From: a virus
Taxonomy: Duplodnaviria > Caudoviricetes
Strand: one strand, 5' to 3'
Length of the DNA: 64,000 nucleotides
IMG/VR virus record: IMGVR_UViG_3300015606_001334
Span: 96,001-160,000 of that record
The translations under genes and the position numbers were made by a program. The notes below the pieces were generated by a model that was not told the DNA's origin, did no database searches, and saw only the letters and a program-made list of their open reading frames with translations. Positions 23,892-63,156 of this stretch are shown one piece after another (within the stretch, counting starts at the first letter, position 1; each line of letters starts with the position of its first letter).

Positions 23892-23951
23892 TCATTTTAC
23901 TCCAAACTCCTTTAGATTTATTTATAGAATGAGGAACAAAATGTTACCGGG

Positions 23952-24023
23952 TGGGTAATGTGGGGATCGAACCCACGACCCGCGGATTTAGAATCCGCTG
24001 CTCTACCATTGAGCTAATTACCC
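23952..24023 (-). tRNA. amber suppressor tRNA (anticodon CUA), Lys-like body
   Basis: cloverleaf GGGTAAT..GCGGA TTCTAAA TCCGC..GTTCGATC; no encoded CCA. Confidence 0.85.
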
Positions 24024-32236: not shown

Positions 32237-32312
32237 TGGCCCGCCAGGAGGGAATCGAACCCCCAACCTACTGCTTAGAAGGCAGTTGCTCTATCCGTTG
32301 AGCTACTGGCAG
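32237..32312 (-). tRNA. tRNA-Arg(TCT)
   Basis: cloverleaf, ACTGC CTTCTAA GCAGT, CCA. Confidence 0.92.
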
Positions 32313-32320
32313 AAAAAGTT

Positions 32321-32581
32321 CTAACAAAAAGTGGTTATTGGGTTTCAGAATAGTCGTAACTATCCCTAAGACAGTTTATCCAACTGACAAGCATCTGATT
32401 ATTCTTTCAGCAAATATCCGATTTTCTCTTACCGGCAAAATGTTAGGATTCTTCCCAACGCATATCAAGTTTAATTCAAGGAGGATTTTAGTCCTTGTTC
32501 CCTATGTTGCTACAAAACTTGCAAATCTATCAACTCCAAAGGACGGGTATCATATTTAGGTAACCAATTCCCAACGGTTAG
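32321..32581 (-). ncRNA. GGTTATC-module RNA, long form (paralog of 48505..48764)
   Basis: CTAACCG..AATTGGTTAC / CCAAT..TTTTTGTTAG closing helix; shared internal motifs. Confidence 0.65.
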
Positions 32582-32670
32582 AACATTAACTTTTAACCTA
32601 ATCACTAGTGACATTTCTACAATAGCAGAATAATTTCTGCATATAAAAACTAATAGGTACTAATAGGTTT

Positions 32671-33163: not shown

Positions 33164-33229
33164 AAGTAAAATACTGCATATAGACTATATATTGTTTCCT
33201 GCAGTATTTTTGTATTCTATCAAGAAAAA

Positions 33230-33523
33230 TTATTGTTGTAAACTGTTTTGCGCAACTTTATTTTCAGAGTTTTTACCAATATGGAATCCATCACAATGCA
33301 CACACTTGTAATTGCTGAAATAGACTCCACGCTTCTTCGCCATAGCTTGAGCTGCTTTGGTTGCAGAAGCTTTTGAGCTGTAAGAAATCTTTGGTTTGCC
33401 GTCTGCATTTTCGTGCGACCGCTTACTGAACAAACCAATCAAATGACCCTTTCGAAGGTTACGAATAAACCTTGAAAGAGGCAACTGATCTTTCAGTGCT
33501 AGATAAATGTTTCGGAGTTTCAC
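33230..33523 (-). CDS. basic hypothetical protein
   Basis: YKCVHCDGFHIG motif. Confidence 0.65.
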   Translation of the reverse strand: MKLRNIYLALKDQLPLSRFIRNLRKGHLIGLFSKRSHENADGKPKISYSSKASATKAAQAMAKKRGVYFSNYKCVHCDGFHIGKNSENKVAQNSLQQ

Positions 33524-40504: not shown

Positions 40505-40649
40505 TGGTGGAGCCGACGGGTCTCGAACCACGTACGTCGCAAGGACACCGGTTTTACCTTAGATAACCATTTTCTGTCGGCTTATTTCTAAGCAAAAGTT
40601 TGAAAACGACTTTTTTGACCGGCGCGTCTACCAATTTCGCCACGACTCC
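40505..40649 (-). ncRNA. Leu-type tRNA scaffold with GGTTATC module in the anticodon arm
   Basis: Leu-type D arm and variable arm, T arm, CCA; CCGGT[~65 nt]ACCGG. Confidence 0.75.
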
Positions 40650-41430: not shown

Positions 41431-41558
41431 TGGTTGAGGCGGAAGGAATCGAACCTTCTCTAGTCGGATATGAGTCGAGATAACCATCCACGAGCGGCGT
41501 ATCTCTACGCAAAAGTTGCAGGCGATGTTTTCCTGTGCTGCCAGTACACTACGCCTCA
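41431..41558 (-). ncRNA. tRNA(CAT) scaffold with GGTTATC module inserted in the 5' strand of the anticodon stem
   Basis: TGAGGCG/CGCCTCA-ACCA; ...GGATGGTTATC TCGA CTCATAT. Confidence 0.75.
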
Positions 41559-45912: not shown

Positions 45913-45985
45913 TGGAGCGGGCGACGAGATTCGAACTCGCCTGTTCCGGCTTGGAAGGCCAGACGTTCTCCAGTTGACCGCCCGC
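45913..45985 (-). tRNA. tRNA-Gly(TCC), atypical D arm
   Basis: loop CTTCCAA, U73. Confidence 0.75.
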
Positions 45986-45989
45986 ATAA

Positions 45990-46096
45990 GACTAACAAAA
46001 GTAGAAATTGACTAAAGTTGCATCCAGCATTCAAGAGGAGAATCGAACTCCTAACTCCATTTTCGCAGAATAGATAACCAATTTCAAGCGGTTAGC
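45990..46096 (-). ncRNA. GGTTATC-module permuted tRNA mimic (GCG loop, T arm)
   Basis: CTAACCG..GAAATTGGTTATC; ATT CTGCGAA AAT; AGGAG TTCGATT CTCCT. Confidence 0.7.
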
Positions 46097-46098
46097 TT

Positions 46099-46174
46099 TG
46101 GCTCTGTAGGGTGGGCTCGAACCACCGACCGACGGATTAACAGTCCGTTGCTCTACCAACTGAGCTACTACAGA
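46099..46174 (-). tRNA. tRNA-Asn(GTT)
   Basis: ACGGA CTGTTAA TCCGT. Confidence 0.92.
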
Positions 46175-48321: not shown

Positions 48322-48504
48322 AAAAACAATTCTTAGCCCTGGAATTACTTATGAGAATCCGCATAGTTCCAGTTTAACGGCCCTCACTAAGAATTGGGCG
48401 CATATGGAGATCATTGAAATCGTCTATCACCGTGCTTAGTTTCGTACTGAAGCGTACGTCTTTAGACTTATCGGCACCGTCACCCTTCCGGCTCATATGC
48501 GTAG

Positions 48505-48764
48505 TCATTGACAAAATTTAGATATCGGATATTCAGAGAAAAGCGAACTTAACTCCTAGTTAGATGGGTCAGTCACCTAACAACCGCCTACTTATTCTTA
48601 GTAGGAAATATCGACGTTATTCTATGTCGACAATAATCAAATTGTAATCGAGGAGGAGCAAGCTCCTTGTTCCCTCTGTTGTCCGTCAATTTGAAAAAAT
48701 AGACAACATCTCAATTAAGGACGATCATTAGCTATTAAGATAACCAATATCTCGCGGTCAATGA
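48505..48764 (-). ncRNA. GGTTATC-module RNA, long form
   Basis: TCATTGACCG..GATATTGGTTATC / CCGATATC..TTTTGTCAATGA. Confidence 0.7.
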
Positions 48765-48765
48765 T

Positions 48766-48841
48766 TGGTGGAACTGAAGGGAATCGAACCCTCAACATCT
48801 AGCTTGCAAAGCTAGCGCTCTCCCAATTGAGCTACAGCCCC
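48766..48841 (-). tRNA. tRNA-Ala(TGC)
   Basis: G3.U70, loop TTTGCAA. Confidence 0.92.
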
Positions 48842-49014: not shown

Positions 49015-49100
49015 TGGTGCACCAGGTAGGATTCGAACCTACTCACCCAGAGGGAACAGATTTACAGTCTGCCGTAACTCTCCAACTTTACCGCTAGTGC
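49015..49100 (-). tRNA. tRNA-Tyr(GTA)
   Basis: GCAGA CTGTAAA TCTGT, long variable arm. Confidence 0.9.
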
Positions 49101-49104
49101 AATA

Positions 49105-49225
49105 CAATCAAACAAAGATAAAAATCGAATTGCTGCGCCCAATTTCTTGCAGCTCATAAATCCGAAGACCTATGATGGAGTCGAACCATTCATCTGATAG
49201 ATAATCGATTTTCGACGGTTTGATT
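49105..49225 (-). ncRNA. YrlA/Y-RNA-like permuted tRNA mimic with GGTTATC-type module
   Basis: closing helix, then T arm (ATGG TTCGACT CCAT), acceptor closed by UUCG, D-like arm. Confidence 0.75.
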
Positions 49226-49310
49226 GGTGGTCTATCTAGGTAACGATCCTAGCCAACCCGAAGGTATCAGTTTTACAGACTGCGCGGCGTCCTTAGCCGA
49301 ATACTAGACC
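49225..49310 (-). tRNA. tRNA-Tyr(GTA), atypical
   Basis: loop CTGTAAA; non-canonical T loop ATCGTTA. Confidence 0.65.
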
Positions 49311-49488: not shown

Positions 49489-49562
49489 TGGTTGCGGGCA
49501 GGGGAATCGAACCACCTTCCCAACTGGCTTATGAGACCAGCGTCAGACCTTCTGAACCCGCA
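49489..49562 (-). tRNA. tRNA(CAT) Met/Ile2, atypical D arm
   Basis: CTGGT CTCATAA GCCAG, CCA. Confidence 0.7.
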
Positions 49563-49645: not shown

Positions 49646-49735
49646 GGCGGAGGCGGTGAGATTCGAACTCACGGACCTTTTTAGGGATCGGTAGTTTTCA
49701 AGACTACTGCGTTAAACCAGCTCTGCCACGCCTCC
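49645..49735 (-). tRNA. tRNA-Ser(TGA)
   Basis: GTAGT CTTGAAA ACTAC, long variable arm, G73. Confidence 0.92.
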
Positions 49736-50068
49736 ATTTTTACGATTCCTCGACTTGTAAGTACTCAACTGTGAATCACAATTGCTACAGACAAATCTTA
49801 GATTTTCTAATCTATTGTCGTTGTTAACACCGTTGATGTGGCCAAGAATTAATGGCATAGGTTTCCCTTGCCATTCAGGACCAATTCCACAGCATGCGCA
49901 ACGATATTCGATTAACTTTCCATCTAATATTCGACTCTTTACATGATGTCTAGCGAGAGTCGAATTTTCAGAAAAAACTTCTTCATCCGTCTTTCTTATC
50001 GACCGATGATACTCTGTTAATCCTGGTTTCTTTCCTTTATTCCAAGGGACACTTCCTTTTGATGCCAT
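49712..50068 (-). CDS. HNH endonuclease
   Basis: CACCG, HINGVNNDNRLENLRFVCSNC; stop lies inside tRNA-Ser. Confidence 0.85.
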   Translation of the reverse strand: MASKGSVPWNKGKKPGLTEYHRSIRKTDEEVFSENSTLARHHVKSRILDGKLIEYRCACCGIGPEWQGKPMPLILGHINGVNNDNRLENLRFVCSNCDSQLSTYKSRNRKNGGVAELV

Positions 50069-50401: not shown

Positions 50402-50476
50402 GGTTGCGGGAGTTGGACTTGCACCAACCTTGGCCAGCTTATGAGACTGGTGATGAACTTTCTCCTCTATCCCGCA
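50401..50476 (-). tRNA. tRNA(CAT), atypical
   Basis: CCAGT CTCATAA GCTGG; T loop TGCAAGT; CCA. Confidence 0.65.
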
Positions 50477-50483
50477 ATCAAAA

Positions 50484-50599
50484 GATAAACAAAACTAGTA
50501 ATCGATGAACCTCTTTCGAGGGTGAAGGGCTTGAACCTTCTAACTTGTGGATGATTAGTCCTCTCGTATTATCCGATAACCAATTACTCACGGTTTATC
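50484..50599 (-). ncRNA. GGTTATC-module permuted tRNA mimic (AAT loop), paralog of 32749..32873
   Basis: GGA CTAATCA TCC; GAAGG TTCAAGC CCTTC. Confidence 0.7.
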
Positions 50600-50981
50600 A
50601 ATTACTTCTTCCTTTTCCTCCTTTAGCTGACATATTCCTATGCCATTCTTTGAACTCTTCAGGAGAAAGAGAATTCTTCATTTTTGTTATGTATGAAATT
50701 CGTTTATTCTGACGATAATCATCTCTCAAATTATCTGAGTATGTTCCCCAATACAAATGATTTGGATTTGAGCATTTACCATTTCCACAGCCATGACAAC
50801 AAATAACTTTCTTACCTGTCGGTATTGTGGTTTTAAGATGGTGTGCTAATAACCCTCTAAATTCTACAGAGCTATATCCACCAATTTCAATACAAGGCTC
50901 GTCAAGTTTAAGGTGCTTCTGTCTATCTTCTACAGGAAGCTCAATATACTCAAGAATTTCTACGAAACTGGTAGGAGACAT
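50598..50981 (-). CDS. HNH (His-Cys box-like) homing endonuclease; start uncertain
   Basis: CCHGCGNGKCSNPNHLYWGTYSDNL.D. Confidence 0.75.
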   Translation of the reverse strand: MSPTSFVEILEYIELPVEDRQKHLKLDEPCIEIGGYSSVEFRGLLAHHLKTTIPTGKKVICCHGCGNGKCSNPNHLYWGTYSDNLRDDYRQNKRISYITKMKNSLSPEEFKEWHRNMSAKGGKGRSN

Positions 50982-51043
50982 GGGACTCGAACCCACAACC
51001 TCGACATTAAAAGTGTCTTGCTCTACCATTGAGCTAATCTCCC
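50969..51043 (-). tRNA. tRNA-Lys(TTT)
   Basis: loop CTTTTAA, CCA. Confidence 0.9.
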
Positions 51044-51169: not shown

Positions 51170-51298
51170 CGGTGCAGTCTGAAGGAATCGAACCTCCGTC
51201 TTCGCCTTGTAATGGATAACCATTTTCAAGCGGTTCATTTTCATGAACAAATTCAGAAAACGATGTTTATCGCTGTTCTACCACTGAACTAAGACTGC
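51170..51298 (-). ncRNA. tRNA-Val(TAC) scaffold with GGTTATC module inserted near position 29/30
   Basis: removing the insert restores a CGCC/GGCG stem and ATTACAA loop. Confidence 0.75.
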
Positions 51299-51354: not shown

Positions 51355-51483
51355 GGTGGAGAGTAGAGGATTCGAACCTCTGACCACGTGCTTAACAGGC
51401 AGATAACCAATTTCGGCCGGTTTGAGCAAACAAACAAAGAGTGAAATCGACATTTACGTGCTCTACCACTGAGCTAACTCCCC
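51355..51483 (-). ncRNA. tRNA(GTT) scaffold with GGTTATC module inserted near position 29/30; G3.U70 acceptor
   Basis: removing the insert restores CGTGC CTGTTAA GCACG. Confidence 0.78.
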
Positions 51484-51639: not shown

Positions 51640-51921
51640 ATCGATGAGCTTCATAATCAAACCTACCAACTTTACGGGAAGGAGGGTTGAATGTCTTCCA
51701 GTTGCCTCGCGGCAAGTTGGTTCTTCCAGACTTCTGAAGCTCATTGATAACGATATCAGAGACTTGATCGTTAGTTAAGAGATTTTCACTGAAGCTTGTC
51801 TTTCGACTGCTACGAGCTCCGAGTACTCTTATCTGATTTGGCTTTTCCGAATTGTTAAAGAATCAACTACTTACTGAAGAATTTGAATTGTATCTCATTC
51901 ATCAGCTTTTGTAAACTGCTA

Positions 51922-52217: not shown

Positions 52218-52313
52218 TAAAGATCGTTTGCTGCAAGTGAAGTTGAATTATATCTTCAACTTCAGGTTTTGTAAACTGTTTCTTCAACAAATTTTCAAAA
52301 CCTTTACTACATT

Positions 52314-52399
52314 TGGCGGAGACGGTGGGAATCGAACCCACTGAACCTTTCGGTCCTACACCTTAGCAGGGTGCTGCATTACCGGCCTGCCCCGTCTCC
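52314..52399 (-). tRNA. tRNA-Ser(GCT)
   Basis: GCACC CTGCTAA GGTGT, G73, CCA. Confidence 0.9.
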
Positions 52400-53055
52400 A
52401 ATTTTCTTCCTGCTTTCCAACCTTGATTTTCCCAAGATTGAAGTTCATCTTTCTTTATCTTCTTCGCTTCGGAACCATTGTTTATCCAACAAGTACCAAA
52501 TTGAGAATTCTTTTCACCTCTTACTGCTTCCTTCATCGAAGAACTAATTTTTATCTTAGTTTCCTCTTTATGGGTTTTTCCTGTCCAATCTCCAGAAGGA
52601 ACCTTCCCATACTTTTTCATCTTACCTTCTATGCCACGACGATGCCGCTCTTTTGCGGCCTCTGATCCTTTACTAAATATCTCAGCTCTTTTACTTCCAC
52701 CAGCTGAAGACCTAGCGATTTGAATCCTGTTTCGCTCTACATCATCTGAATTGATATGATCCCAACCACCTTCTCCACCAAACTTCAAGTTCATGCAGAG
52801 CGGGTGTTTCAACATCTCCTCGTTTACTACTTCAGCTTCTCTCTTCTTGAGTTCTTCTCTTGAAGGTAGAAACTCTAAAATCTCAAACTTGTGGTTTTCC
52901 AACCCATATTTCCGGATCGAATAACCTAACCTCTTTCCACTTCCTACATAACCATCTTCCAAGTTATCCGTTGAGTGCATCCCAACGTAGAACTTTTCAT
53001 TCAGAAGATTTGTGGTCCTATAAATGAAGTGGTACTTCTTTTGTTTCCTTGGCAT
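52363..53055 (-). CDS. GIY-YIG (Seg-like) homing endonuclease
   Basis: FIYRTTN..NEKFYVGMHST..DGYVGSG; NUMOD3-like GKTHKEETK; paralog of 36459..37124. Confidence 0.9.
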   Translation of the reverse strand: MPRKQKKYHFIYRTTNLLNEKFYVGMHSTDNLEDGYVGSGKRLGYSIRKYGLENHKFEILEFLPSREELKKREAEVVNEEMLKHPLCMNLKFGGEGGWDHINSDDVERNRIQIARSSAGGSKRAEIFSKGSEAAKERHRRGIEGKMKKYGKVPSGDWTGKTHKEETKIKISSSMKEAVRGEKNSQFGTCWINNGSEAKKIKKDELQSWENQGWKAGRKLETGQAGNAAPC

Positions 53056-53198: not shown

Positions 53199-53747
53199 AA
53201 CAAAGTAAGATGAATTATAAACTAAACTTCTTACTTCGTAAACTACTTTTTAAATCTTTCCAAACCGTGATTTGAAATCTCCCAAACAACGATCTGCCCA
53301 ACGAGTGGCTGCATCAGCATTGGTGCAATTGTCAGCTCTTGCAACATTGATCCACGCTTGTAGCCAAACATGTTCTTCTTTTGAAAGAACCGGAATCTGA
53401 ACTTGTGGTTCATTCTTTTCCAATCGGATACCTTCTGTCATCTTGAACTTCCCTTAAAGAAAGAGAAATTTTATATCAATGCTGCACTTTTGTAAACTAT
53501 AAAACAATTTTGGGAATCTTTTTACGGATTCCCAAATCTAAACTATTCAAACGAAACGTGCGTTGTAACTTAGACTGGGAATTCTCCACCTCTATATCCA
53601 TATGATTTGGACACGAGCAGAGACTTGGCATTATTTGCCAAGGTTGTGCTAATGTTTAAAATCGAAGATATAGAAGACATGATTCCTCAGGGTTAAAAGT
53701 TAAGTTGCTATAATTCTATATATAGTTTCGGTCAGAATTTTTGTTTT

Positions 53748-62205: not shown

Positions 62206-63156
62206 TCAATTATTTACATCTTTTGCGAGGCGCACTTGCGCGGTTTCATTACACAACGTCACCATCATACCTGAGACTTCGAACTTATCATCACGTTTGG
62301 GTCCATTGATCCGCTTTTGGACTTCCTCGATAGCATTGCGAGTCAAGTACTTTCCAAACTTCACGGAGAAATGATGGTAAAGAAAGTTCCGTTGACGATA
62401 GTCGCTTAGCTTTCTTAGGTTCACCCGATCAATTCCGGTTTCACCCGATCCGCATGATTGATTGTCTATATGGTAGAGGTCCTCAATGAGAGCCGAACAC
62501 TCCGACATATTTTGCATGGCTCGCTCAAGTGATGCATAGAACTTCCAGCTTGTGAAATGTTCCTTGAGCAATGGAATCACTTTGTTCCGAATAAAGCCCC
62601 GTGACAGTTCGGTACTATCGTTGGTAGAATCGTGCCCGTATAGTATACTGAGCGCCTCCACTTGCTGCAGGATTTCTTCTTTAGATAGATGGATAAGAGG
62701 ACGAATAAGACGGGAGTTTTTCGGATTCGAAGAAATCCCAGACAGACCTTTGACAGAACTTCCACGACATAGGCGGAAGAAAAACGTTTCGATTGAATCA
62801 TCAAGATGATGACCAGTCAGGAGAGTCTCGTTGAGCAAAAGATTGCTGTACAAAGCATCGTATCTACCCGCTCTTTCGGCAGCTTCGATTCCCTGTGACT
62901 TAACCATTCTTTCGTCAACCGTTGCCGTTAACACGGTGATTTCAAGCCCGTAGTATTTCGCCCACTCAACACAAAAATCCCGAATCTTTTCAGCGCCATT
63001 CGACGCCTTGGAATCAGGATGCATGACATGGACTAATCGAAAGTCGTATCCACCTTGCTTAAGTAGGAAAGCAAGAAGGGCAGAATCTGCCCCTCCGGAA
63101 AATGCTACGACGTAACGAAGACCAATGTGTTTTGGTAGGTTAATCATCTTTGTCAA
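62206..63156 (-). CDS. tilS: tRNA(Ile)-lysidine synthetase
   Basis: PP-loop AFSGGADS, E..R..RY, TGHHLDDSIET, RG, IRPL, D.TN, R..IRNKVIP. Confidence 0.9.
   Translation of the reverse strand: MTKMINLPKHIGLRYVVAFSGGADSALLAFLLKQGGYDFRLVHVMHPDSKASNGAEKIRDFCVEWAKYYGLEITVLTATVDERMVKSQGIEAAERAGRYDALYSNLLLNETLLTGHHLDDSIETFFFRLCRGSSVKGLSGISSNPKNSRLIRPLIHLSKEEILQQVEALSILYGHDSTNDSTELSRGFIRNKVIPLLKEHFTSWKFYASLERAMQNMSECSALIEDLYHIDNQSCGSGETGIDRVNLRKLSDYRQRNFLYHHFSVKFGKYLTRNAIEEVQKRINGPKRDDKFEVSGMMVTLCNETAQVRLAKDVNN

What the first reader, a model, noticed from the sequence alone, without database searches (positions are those of the whole stretch)
48505..48764. Two paralogous ~260-nt ncRNAs (48505..48764 and 32321..32581) carrying a shared large domain on the GGTTATC handle
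Seen: both are closed by the module and share colinear + strand motifs (ttcaga, ttattct, aaatatc, ggagga..tccttgttccct.tgttg, aaggacg) with variable hairpins between them and no credible ORF. Conservation of short motifs across divergent copies 16 kb apart suggests a functional RNA fold (inference).
Basis: partly seen in the sequence, partly recalled or inferred. Interest (0 to 1): 0.75.

Follow-up and report, generated by a model that had tools for sequence, protein, structure and literature searches.

The report
Two giant phage Y-RNA paralogs
A 360-kb phage that encodes its own Ro60 protein carries, among its tRNA genes, two related ~260-base non-coding RNAs whose ends form the stem that Y RNAs use to dock Ro60, but which hold an unknown ~210-base domain where ordinary Y RNAs have a small loop or tRNA-like module.

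Summary
They are real paralogs: alignment z = 13 against dinucleotide shuffles, z = 10 for the inner domain alone. No other stretch of the 359,550-bp genome resembles them. They have no shared ORF and no Rfam match. The functional strand is minus, like every gene and tRNA in the window.

The "GGTTATC handle" is a Y-RNA stem. It has a covarying terminal helix with a bulged C (AA[C]CG / UUUUG-UU), a second covarying helix, then UUAUC. Its CCG-N9-GGUUAUC motif has the same letters and spacing as the 5' strand of human Y4 RNA.

The phage encodes a full Ro60 (TROVE + Ro60-vWA). So do the three other large phage records I found with this handle.

About 25 sister units measure 64-135 nt. Only A, B and B's ortholog in a related contig carry the ~210-nt cargo.

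Inside the cargo I can support only local hairpins, not a full fold. I found no homolog elsewhere and could obtain no transcript data.

Verdict: a new size and cargo variant of phage Y RNA, with cargo function unknown. Other notes of this scan already flagged this genome's handle family and Y-like RNAs in other phages.

The parts
48505..48764 (-). Copy A, whole element (260 nt). It starts 1 nt after the CCA of tRNA-Ala-UGC.
48757..48764 (-). A: P1 5' strand TCATTGAC. The last C is the bulged C in the Y-RNA register.
   Evidence: pairing probability 0.98
48739..48757 (-). A: handle, CCG then an N8 stretch and UGG (P2 5' strand AGATATTGG), then UUAUC
   Evidence: same letters and spacing as human Y4
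48529..48738 (-). A: cargo domain (~210 nt) shared with copy B
48651..48683 (-). A: best-conserved core. CAACA.AGGGAACAAGGA, a 6-nt spacer, then UCCUCCU. The AAGGAG / CUCCU parts resemble a Shine-Dalgarno / anti-Shine-Dalgarno pair and can form a hairpin.
48535..48631 (-). A: four local hairpins. Hc 48610-48631; Hd 48587-48605 (loop AAGAAUA); He 48559-48581; Hf 48535-48556 (UUCG loop). The conserved UCUGAA follows.
   Evidence: Hc, Hd, He probability 0.98-0.99
48505..48528 (-). A: 3' strand of the handle. P2 3' CCGATATCT, then AAAUUUU, then G and P1 3' (GTCAATGA).
32318..32584 (-). Copy B, whole element (267 nt). It ends 5 nt (UUUUU) before tRNA-Arg-UCU.
32559..32584 (-). B: P1 5' strand GTTCTAAC, CCG, P2 5' strand, then UUACC
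32342..32558 (-). B: cargo domain (~217 nt). It includes a B-only hairpin insertion (GTTGGGA-AGAA-TCCTAAC, 32442-32459).
32478..32509 (-). B: conserved core CAACA.AGGGAACAAGGA ... UCCUCCUU
32344..32410 (-). B: hairpins Hd 32395-32410, He 32370-32388 and Hf 32348-32365 (UACG loop), then UCUGAA
32318..32341 (-). B: 3' strand of the handle. P2 3' CCAATAACCA, then CUUUUU, then G and P1 3' (GTTAGAAC).
48766..48841 (-). tRNA-Ala-UGC directly upstream of A. Its 3' processing would create A's 5' end.
32237..32312 (-). tRNA-Arg-UCU directly downstream of B. RNase P cleavage at its 5' end would create B's 3' end.
33214..33242 (-). Promoter-like site (TTTACA-17-TAGAAT with TG) upstream of the Ala-Ile-Gly-B-Arg cluster. 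No promoter or terminator lies next to B itself.

Best explanation
A and B are two paralogous, unusually large Y RNAs of the phage, that is, partner RNAs of the phage-encoded Ro60 protein.

Shown:
- Their 5' and 3' ends pair into the same two-part stem as about 25 shorter sister RNAs in five phage records.
- That stem carries the Y-RNA signature: bulged C, a C-G pair followed by a G.U pair, CCG-N9-GGUUAUC on the 5' strand and UUUUG on the 3' strand.
- The genome encodes a canonical Ro60.

Inferred:
- They are transcribed with the flanking tRNAs from upstream promoters.
- tRNA processing releases them: 3' maturation of tRNA-Ala makes A's 5' end, and RNase P at tRNA-Arg makes B's 3' end with a UUUUU tail.
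- Phage Ro60 binds the stem.
- The ~210-nt cargo takes the place of the loop or tRNA-like module of ordinary Y RNAs. Those modules tether Ro60 to an effector, for example PNPase in Deinococcus and in Thermus phage phiLo. The cargo would therefore direct Ro60 to a different, still unknown partner or substrate.

The cargo is built from several hairpins (UNCG-capped, AAGAAUA-loop) separated by invariant single-stranded boxes: CGUCCUU, AGGGAACAAGGA, UCCUCCU, GAUAUUU, UCUGAA.
For: Stem:
- P1 covaries. Pairs 3-5 use all four Watson-Crick types across 27 units.
- Each 5' strand finds its own 3' partner in 23 of 38 cases, against 8.7% when 5' and 3' strands of different units are swapped.
- P2 duplex energy is -9.3 kcal/mol with the unit's own partner and -4.4 with swapped partners (Mann-Whitney p = 2e-13). 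A scores -10.6 and B -9.1.

Y-RNA identity of the handle:
- Human Y4 5' sequence GGCUGGUCCGAUGGUAGUGGGUUAUC... (PMC6096425) has CCG, nine bases, then GGUUAUC, exactly as the phage units do.
- YrlA RNAs carry a conserved YUAY at nt 22-25 (PMC4201824). The phage has UUAU at about 21-24.
- Sinorhizobium phage Phosso, annotated with a Ro-like protein, has YrlA-shaped units with G[C]CGA-N7-8-GGGTTATC ... CACTTGC.

Ro60:
- A 535-aa ORF with TROVE 4.6e-40 and vWA_Ro60 1.6e-56.
- E = 9.5e-103 to D. radiodurans Rsr and 2.8e-100 to Xenopus Ro60.
- TROVE is also present in G001 and G002, which carry the handle, and in a contig from the same sample as B's ortholog.

Paralogy and constraint.

Placement:
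- P1 begins 0-2 nt after the CCA of the upstream tRNA in five of the units, including A.
- There is no promoter or terminator of their own.

Precedent for a long Y RNA: a ~215-nt unit with non-tRNA cargo lies just upstream of the Phosso Ro gene.
Against:
- Rfam Y_RNA and YrlA models do not reach threshold anywhere in the genome. No Rfam family hits A or B.
- The Ro60 gene lies 79 and 95 kb from B and A, not adjacent as in bacteria.
- The exact Ro-contact heptamer GGUCCGA is replaced by AACCG (B) or GACCG (A).
- 260 nt is twice the size of any described Y RNA.
- The cargo has no homolog outside this lineage, so its fold rests on two diverged sequences. SCI is 0.48, B's z is -1.2, and A's and B's minimum-energy folds disagree in the 5' half of the cargo.
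Confidence: 0.6

Rival explanations
1. They are cis-acting spacer structures of the polycistronic tRNA precursor. The closing helices would serve as processing stalks or punctuation for RNases (RNase III/E type), and the excised pieces would be degraded. There would be no trans-acting role and no Ro60 binding.
For: Both lie between tRNAs with no promoter or terminator of their own. Other spacers of the array are also closed by long helices, for example 48399-48501 and 48327-48396.
Against: - A simple processing stalk would not need the invariant CCG-N9-GGUUAUC / UUUUG signature.
- It would not explain that signature matching human Y4.
- It would not explain its recurrence in phages of 43% and 54% GC that all encode Ro60.
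- It would not need 210 nt of conserved cargo.
Confidence: 0.15
2. They are a decaying segmental duplication of a spacer. The handle may be functional, but the large shared domain is neutral leftover sequence with no fold or function of its own.
For: - Only two copies plus one near-identical ortholog exist.
- A/B identity of 68% is lower than that of the flanking isoacceptor tRNAs, 78-82%.
- At 68% identity a run of 12-17 identical bases is not very unlikely (my estimate).
- B's fold is no better than shuffles, and Hx is not significant.
Against: - Hairpins Hc, Hd, He and Hf recur at the same positions with different stem sequences. Hf is capped by a UNCG tetraloop in both copies (UUCG in A, UACG in B).
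- B is as conserved as the adjacent tRNAs, while the adjacent protein gene has fallen to 65% identity.
- Substitutions in helices are wobble-preserving.
- A folds far better than shuffles, z = -5.2.
Confidence: 0.15
3. They are mobile or DNA-level elements: MITE-like insertions, small introns, or recombination or packaging sites with terminal inverted repeats.
For: Inverted repeats sit at both ends. Three homing-endonuclease ORFs (two HNH, one GIY-YIG) lie in the same tRNA array.
Against: - The terminal repeats differ between copies and covary, rather than being conserved as transposon ends would be.
- I saw no target-site duplication in the sequence flanking the two ends.
- They interrupt no gene.
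- There is no intron family in Rfam at E < 10.
- The substitutions in B's ortholog keep G.U pairs on one strand only, and the minus strand folds 7-13 kcal/mol better.
Confidence: 0.04

Closest known systems
Metazoan Y RNAs (human Y1/Y3/Y4/Y5; Rfam RF00019), the Ro60-bound RNAs
   Same: - The 5' and 3' ends form a long stem with a bulged C followed by C-G and G.U pairs.
- The 5' strand CCG-N9-GGUUAUC has the same letters and spacing as human Y4 (PMC6096425).
- The 3' strand is U-rich, ending in UUG plus the helix.
- Ro60 is encoded in the same genome.
   Different: - 260-267 nt against 80-130 nt.
- The flanks of the Ro site differ: AA/GA instead of GGU, and no A after CCG.
- The RF00019 model gives no hit.
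- Made within a tRNA operon rather than by Pol III.
- The apical part is a ~210-nt multi-hairpin domain rather than a loop.
Bacterial and phage YrlA/YrlB Y RNAs (Chen et al. 2014, PMC4201824; Rfam RF02553) and Thermus phage phiLo Yrl1/Yrl2 (PMC12135203)
   Same: - Y RNAs encoded by phages that carry a Ro60 gene.
- Stem-bulge-stem layout.
- YUAY after the stem.
- Sister units in this phage do carry T-arm and D-arm-like modules, as YrlA does.
   Different: - A and B have no T or D arm.
- They have no GNCGAA / CGAA motif.
- They are not next to the Ro60 gene (79-95 kb away).
- They score below the RF02553 threshold.
- They are twice as long.
~215-nt Y-like RNA upstream of the Ro-like gene of Sinorhizobium phage Phosso (PV764938, about 288.7-288.9 kb; unannotated, seen here)
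   Same: - Same handle: GAAG[C]CGA-N8-GGGTTATC ... CACTTGCTTC.
- Long P2 (GTAAAAGGG/CCCTTTAC).
- Cargo of about 165 nt without a tRNA-like module, built of tetraloop-capped hairpins.
   Different: The cargo sequence is unrelated to that of A/B (z about 0). It sits beside the Ro gene, not in a tRNA array.
Stable small RNAs encoded inside phage tRNA clusters (T4 species 1 and 2 RNAs; T5 tRNA-region RNAs). This comparison rests on my own knowledge.
   Same: Non-coding RNAs embedded between tRNA genes, probably released by tRNA-processing enzymes, with unknown function.
   Different: No sequence similarity was found in the phage collection. Those RNAs are not known to carry a Ro60-type stem, and those phages are not known to encode Ro60.

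Membership tests
Y RNA (Ro60 partner RNA) | 5' and 3' ends pair into a long terminal stem | tested here: met
   P1 has 8 bp in both copies, with pairing probability 0.98-1.0. It covaries across the family. P2 is supported by own-versus-swapped duplex energies.
Y RNA (Ro60 partner RNA) | Conserved bulged helix that is the Ro60 site (vertebrate GGUCCGA / UUGACC) | tested here: inconclusive
   The core is kept: bulged C, C-G, G.U, CCG on the 5' strand and UUG on the 3' strand. CCG-N9-GGUUAUC equals human Y4. The flanking bases differ: AACCG or GACCG, and UUUUGUU.
Y RNA (Ro60 partner RNA) | A Ro60 (TROVE + vWA) protein is present in the same organism | tested here: met
   535-aa ORF at G000:C1:47685-49292 (-)..
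Y RNA (Ro60 partner RNA) | Physically bound by Ro60 | not testable with these tools
   Needs EMSA or co-immunoprecipitation.
Y RNA (Ro60 partner RNA) | Length about 80-130 nt (PMC4201824) | tested here: not met
   260 and 267 nt.
Y RNA (Ro60 partner RNA) | Match to Rfam RF00019 | tested here: not met
   No match at E <= 10 in the whole genome.
YrlA (RF02553) | tRNA-like domain with near-invariant T and D arms | tested here: not met
   No T-arm motif lies inside A or B and there is no tRNA or YrlA hit there. Sister units do have T arms.
YrlA (RF02553) | GNCGAAN0-1G near the 5' end, and YUAY starting the next element | tested here: inconclusive
   YUAY is present (UUAU in A, UUAC in B). GNCGAA is absent from A (CCGCGAGA) and B (CCGUUGGGAA), though present in some sister units.
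YrlA (RF02553) | Covariance-model score at or above 69 bits | tested here: not met
   The best hits in the genome score 29 bits and overlap tRNAs. None lies in A or B.
YrlA (RF02553) | Encoded next to the Ro60 gene | tested here: not met
   The Ro60 gene is 79 kb from B and 95 kb from A.
Group I/II intron or other self-splicing element | Interrupts a gene and matches an intron covariance model | tested here: not met
   The elements lie between complete tRNAs. No intron family hits at E < 10.
MITE / transposon remnant | Terminal inverted repeats conserved between copies, with target-site duplication | tested here: not met
   The terminal repeats differ between copies and covary. I saw no direct repeat in the sequence flanking the two ends.

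The most novel reading that the evidence does not exclude
The cargo is a targeting module that brings phage Ro60, and whatever nuclease it recruits, to a specific host ribonucleoprotein. The most concrete guess is the small ribosomal subunit or mRNA start sites, through the invariant Shine-Dalgarno-like AAGGA(G) and anti-Shine-Dalgarno-like UCCUCCU boxes. If so, the phage would use a set of Y RNAs with exchangeable cargoes (tRNA-like, tRNA chimeras, this large domain) to aim a single RNA-surveillance protein at different targets during infection. A human Y RNA that binds ribosomes has recently been reported (PMC13501136).
Probability: 0.1. Interest if true: 0.85.

Novelty: new variant of a known kind. 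Interest (0 to 1): 0.6.

Why it matters
Y RNAs are described as 80-130-nt RNAs whose apical module decides what Ro60 is tethered to. Only two kinds of module are understood in bacteria and phages: PNPase-binding loops and tRNA mimics.

A and B show that a phage can put a third, much larger structured domain on the same Ro60 handle, and keep it in two diverged copies. Together with the ~215-nt Phosso RNA, this suggests that "long Y RNAs" with diverse cargoes are an overlooked class in Ro60-encoding jumbo phages.

The match of CCG-N9-GGUUAUC between a phage and human Y4 is also a useful search signature, because the Rfam models miss all of these RNAs. Identifying what the cargo binds would show what a phage uses Ro60 for, which remains an open question.

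Tried and rejected
- **Rfam.** Gathering and E <= 10 scans of the window, of both neighbourhoods and of the loci gave nothing but tRNAs and noise in A and B. RF00019 and RF02553 run on the whole genome stayed below threshold. Neither of the two sister units I scanned individually (window 49095-49240 and 45980-46105) nor the clear Phosso Y units reach the YrlA or Y_RNA thresholds.
- **Homolog searches for the cargo.**
  - blastn against 50,697 phage records found none.
  - BLAST and nhmmer over related huge-phage records and all fetched loci found none.
- **rRNA mimicry or antisense.** Local alignment of A and B to E. coli 16S, 23S and 5S on both strands gave z <= 2.5. The idea is not supported by sequence. 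The 8-nt UAGGGAAC match to 5S is trivial.
- **First reading of the module as a simple AACC/GGUU hairpin.** This was replaced by the P1/P2 model, which explains the covariation.
- **Long-range or pseudoknot helix Hx** (TCAAATTG/CAATTTGA in A; CAAGTTT/AAACTTG in B). It has two compensatory changes, but 14% of column shuffles do as well, so I keep it only as a possibility.
- **A-specific pairing** of AGAGGGAA with UUUUCUCU is not conserved in B.
- **ORFs**, including TAG read-through because the phage has a CUA suppressor tRNA: none shared.
- **Own promoter or terminator:** none.
- **Phage-encoded RtcB or PNPase as the effector:** both absent.
- **Structure-aware MAFFT modes** are not installed.

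Full report
**Setting.**
- The window is bases 96,001-160,000 of a 359,550-bp IMG/VR phage record that CheckV estimates as complete. GC content is 43%.
- All ORFs of note, about 46 tRNA genes, a permuted tmRNA and a CUA suppressor tRNA lie on the minus strand.
- The two elements sit in the tRNA arrays.
  - Copy A (48505-48764) begins one base after the CCA of tRNA-Ala-UGC.
  - Copy B ends five U's before tRNA-Arg-UCU.

**Observation.**
- A and B are 68% identical.
  - The global alignment score is 13 sd above dinucleotide shuffles.
  - It is still 10 sd above when the handle and closing helix are removed.
  - No other window of the genome on either strand comes close, and nhmmer agrees.
- No frame is open in both copies.
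- So the refutation test "alignment no better than shuffled controls" fails, and the paralogy is real.

**What the handle is.**
- GGTTATC occurs 22 times in the window against 5.8 expected, 19 of them on the minus strand.
- In context the motif reads (A/G)(A/G)CCG-N8-(U/C)GGUUAUC. Genome-wide it is confined to the window's tRNA regions.
- I first read it as a small hairpin. That reading fails to explain a second regularity.
  - The four or five bases before AACCG are always complementary to the bases that follow a downstream UUUUGUU.
  - These bases differ from unit to unit.
- The resulting model has four parts.
  - P1: X-AA / UU-X'.
  - A bulged C followed by C-G and G.U pairs.
  - A small internal loop.
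  - P2, in which N8 + UGG pairs with the 3' strand, followed by UUAUC.
- Tests of the model:
  - Across 27 units in five phage records, P1 positions 3-5 use all four Watson-Crick pairs.
  - Units were found from the 5' motif alone. A unit's own downstream sequence supplies a partner in 23 of 38 cases, against 8.7% for swapped 5' strands.
  - P2 duplexes are 5 kcal/mol better with the unit's own partner than with others (p = 2e-13).
- A and B fit both helices. Five of eight P1 pairs are changed on both sides between them.

**Why it is a Y-RNA stem.** A note from this scan on the same genome suggested a "Y module", and I tested that lead.
- The genome encodes a 535-aa protein with TROVE and Ro60-vWA domains. 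It aligns end to end with D. radiodurans Rsr (E = 9.5e-103) and Xenopus Ro60 (E = 2.8e-100).
- Two other large phage records carry the handle: G001 (358 kb, 54% GC) and G002 (108 kb). Both also encode TROVE proteins.
- The published 5' end of human Y4 RNA is GGCUGGUCCGAUGGUAGUGGGUUAUC... (PMC6096425). It reads CCG, nine bases, then GGUUAUC, the same letters and spacing as the phage units.
- Chen et al. describe a conserved YUAY at nt 22-25 of YrlA (PMC4201824). The phage UUAU lies at about 21-24.
- Sinorhizobium phage Phosso is an isolated 469-kb phage annotated with a Ro-like protein.
  - Its units read X-G[C]CGA-N7-8-GGGTTATC ... CACTTGC-X' and enclose a T arm, a stem-loop and a D arm, the YrlA layout.
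  - They bridge the vertebrate and phage versions of the handle.
- Against formal membership: neither RF00019 nor RF02553 reaches threshold in this genome or on the Phosso units. The exact GGUCCGA and GNCGAA motifs are not kept.

**What is special about A and B.**
- All other units found are 64-135 nt. Their apical parts are short loops or T-arm-containing modules, and four units are permuted into tRNA bodies.
- Only A, B and B's ortholog on contig IMGVR_UViG_3300033068_002039 are 260-269 nt. All three share one cargo.
- The cargo consists of invariant boxes separated by hairpins.
  - The boxes are CGUCCUU; CAACA.AGGGAACAAGGA; UCCUCCU six bases later; UUGAU; GAUAUUU; AAGAAUAA as a hairpin loop; and UCUGAA.
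  - The hairpin stems differ between A and B but keep pairing.
- The matched hairpins are:

| Hairpin | Copy A | Copy B |
|---|---|---|
| Hd | CCUAC/GUAGG | CUGA/UCAG |
| Hf | UUCG loop | UACG loop |
| He | same position, different sequence | same position, different sequence |
| Hc | same position, different sequence | same position, different sequence |

- The AAGGA(G) and CUCCU boxes can pair with each other.
- Beyond that, the evidence for a fold is thin.
  - The sequence-based consensus has SCI 0.48.
  - A folds much better than shuffles (z = -5.2) but B does not (z = -1.2).
  - The two minimum-energy folds disagree in the 5' half of the cargo.
  - The attractive long-range helix Hx is not significant.

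**Constraint.**
- In the related contig, B is 97.4% identical. The flanking tRNAs are 89-100% identical. The adjacent radical-SAM protein is 65% identical, and the DNA beyond the tRNA block is 80% identical.
- Two of the seven substitutions fall in helices (Hf and P2). Both turn an A-U pair into G.U on the minus strand, which would be a C.A mismatch on the plus strand.
- The minus strand also folds 7-13 kcal/mol better than the plus strand.

**Biogenesis (inferred).**
- No promoter-like or terminator-like site flanks either copy.
- A good promoter-like site lies upstream of the Ala-Ile-Gly-B-Arg cluster.
- In five of the units, including A, P1 starts 0-2 nt after the upstream tRNA's CCA.
- Excision by the tRNA-processing machinery is therefore the simplest route.

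**Function (inferred).**
- By analogy with Yrn1 and YrlA, and with phiLo Yrl RNAs that assemble Ro60 with host PNPase (PMC12135203), the stem would dock phage Ro60. The cargo would then select the partner or substrate.
- The phage has no RtcB or PNPase of its own, so the partner would be a host factor.
- I tested one concrete idea, mimicry of or antisense to rRNA, against E. coli rRNAs and found nothing significant.
- The Shine-Dalgarno / anti-Shine-Dalgarno-like boxes remain a lead only.

**Search for relatives of the cargo.**
- Three IMG/VR motif scans, one JGI metagenome scan, blastn against isolated phages, and BLAST and nhmmer over related huge-phage records found only B's ortholog.
- Phosso has a ~215-nt Y-type RNA with an unrelated ~165-nt non-tRNA cargo next to its Ro gene. 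Long-cargo Y RNAs are therefore not confined to this phage.

**Verdict.**
- The interpretation as functional RNAs is well supported for the handle and partly supported for the cargo.
- The best reading is two paralogous giant Y RNAs, a new variant of a known kind.
- Ro60 binding, expression and the role of the cargo are all untested.

Noticed in passing
window 50404-50476 and 49492-49562 (minus): Two tRNA-like genes with a CAU anticodon loop (CUCAUAA), a TTGCGGG/CCCGCAA acceptor stem plus CCA, and an aberrant D region. ARAGORN misses them and Rfam tRNA scores only 39.7 and 21.6 bits. The phage also encodes a TilS-like PP-loop protein (62206-63156).
   Followed up: partly
window 48399-48501 and 48327-48396 (minus): The 183 nt between copy A and tRNA-Arg hold two more helix-closed structured elements: CGCATATG(G)AG with its complement, and a perfect 10-bp CAATTCTTAG/CTAAGAATTG. 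They have no Y handle and no Rfam match.
   Followed up: partly
window 51357-51483, 51173-51298, 41431-41510, 40505-40649 (minus): tRNA bodies carry the same Y handle in circularly permuted order. The 3' strand comes first and the helix is capped by GAAA, GAGA or a 6-nt loop. P1 covaries here too, including GCUUA/UAAGC and GCGUA/UACGC variants of the normally invariant AA/UU pairs.
   Followed up: partly
window 49712-50068, 50598-51029, 52363-53055 (minus): Two HNH-type ORFs (identified by eye from the translated sequence) and one weak GIY-YIG/NUMOD3 homing-endonuclease ORF are interspersed among the tRNA and Y-like genes. The stop codon of the 50598-51029 ORF overlaps the start of a Y unit.
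   Followed up: no
window about 53215-53245, 52245-52280, 51885-51920 (minus): A promoter-like consensus (GTTTACA/G, about 17 nt, TATAAT or GATACAAT) recurs upstream of several tRNA-like units. It suggests several transcription units within the array.
   Followed up: no
L343 about 1486-1715 (Sinorhizobium phage Phosso PV764938, about 288.69-288.92 kb); also L339, L340, L341, L345: Phosso has at least five unannotated Y-type RNAs with a G[C]CGA-N7-8-GGGTTATC ... CACTTGC handle. Three are YrlA-shaped with T and D arms. One is a ~215-nt RNA with a non-tRNA cargo in the gap just upstream of the Ro-like gene. Rfam YrlA and Y_RNA models miss them.
   Followed up: partly
window 23950-24023 (minus): A suppressor-type tRNA with a CUA anticodon (ARAGORN calls it 'Pyl'; Rfam tRNA scores 74.8 bits). 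It hints that the phage may read TAG as sense in part of its genome.
   Followed up: no
L354 5057-5176 (E. coli 5S rRNA) compared with human Y4: E. coli 5S rRNA contains CCGATGGTAGTGTGGGG, which nearly matches the Y4 5' strand CCGAUGGUAGUGGGUU. This is curious because Ro60 binds misfolded 5S precursors. I did not pursue it.
   Followed up: no
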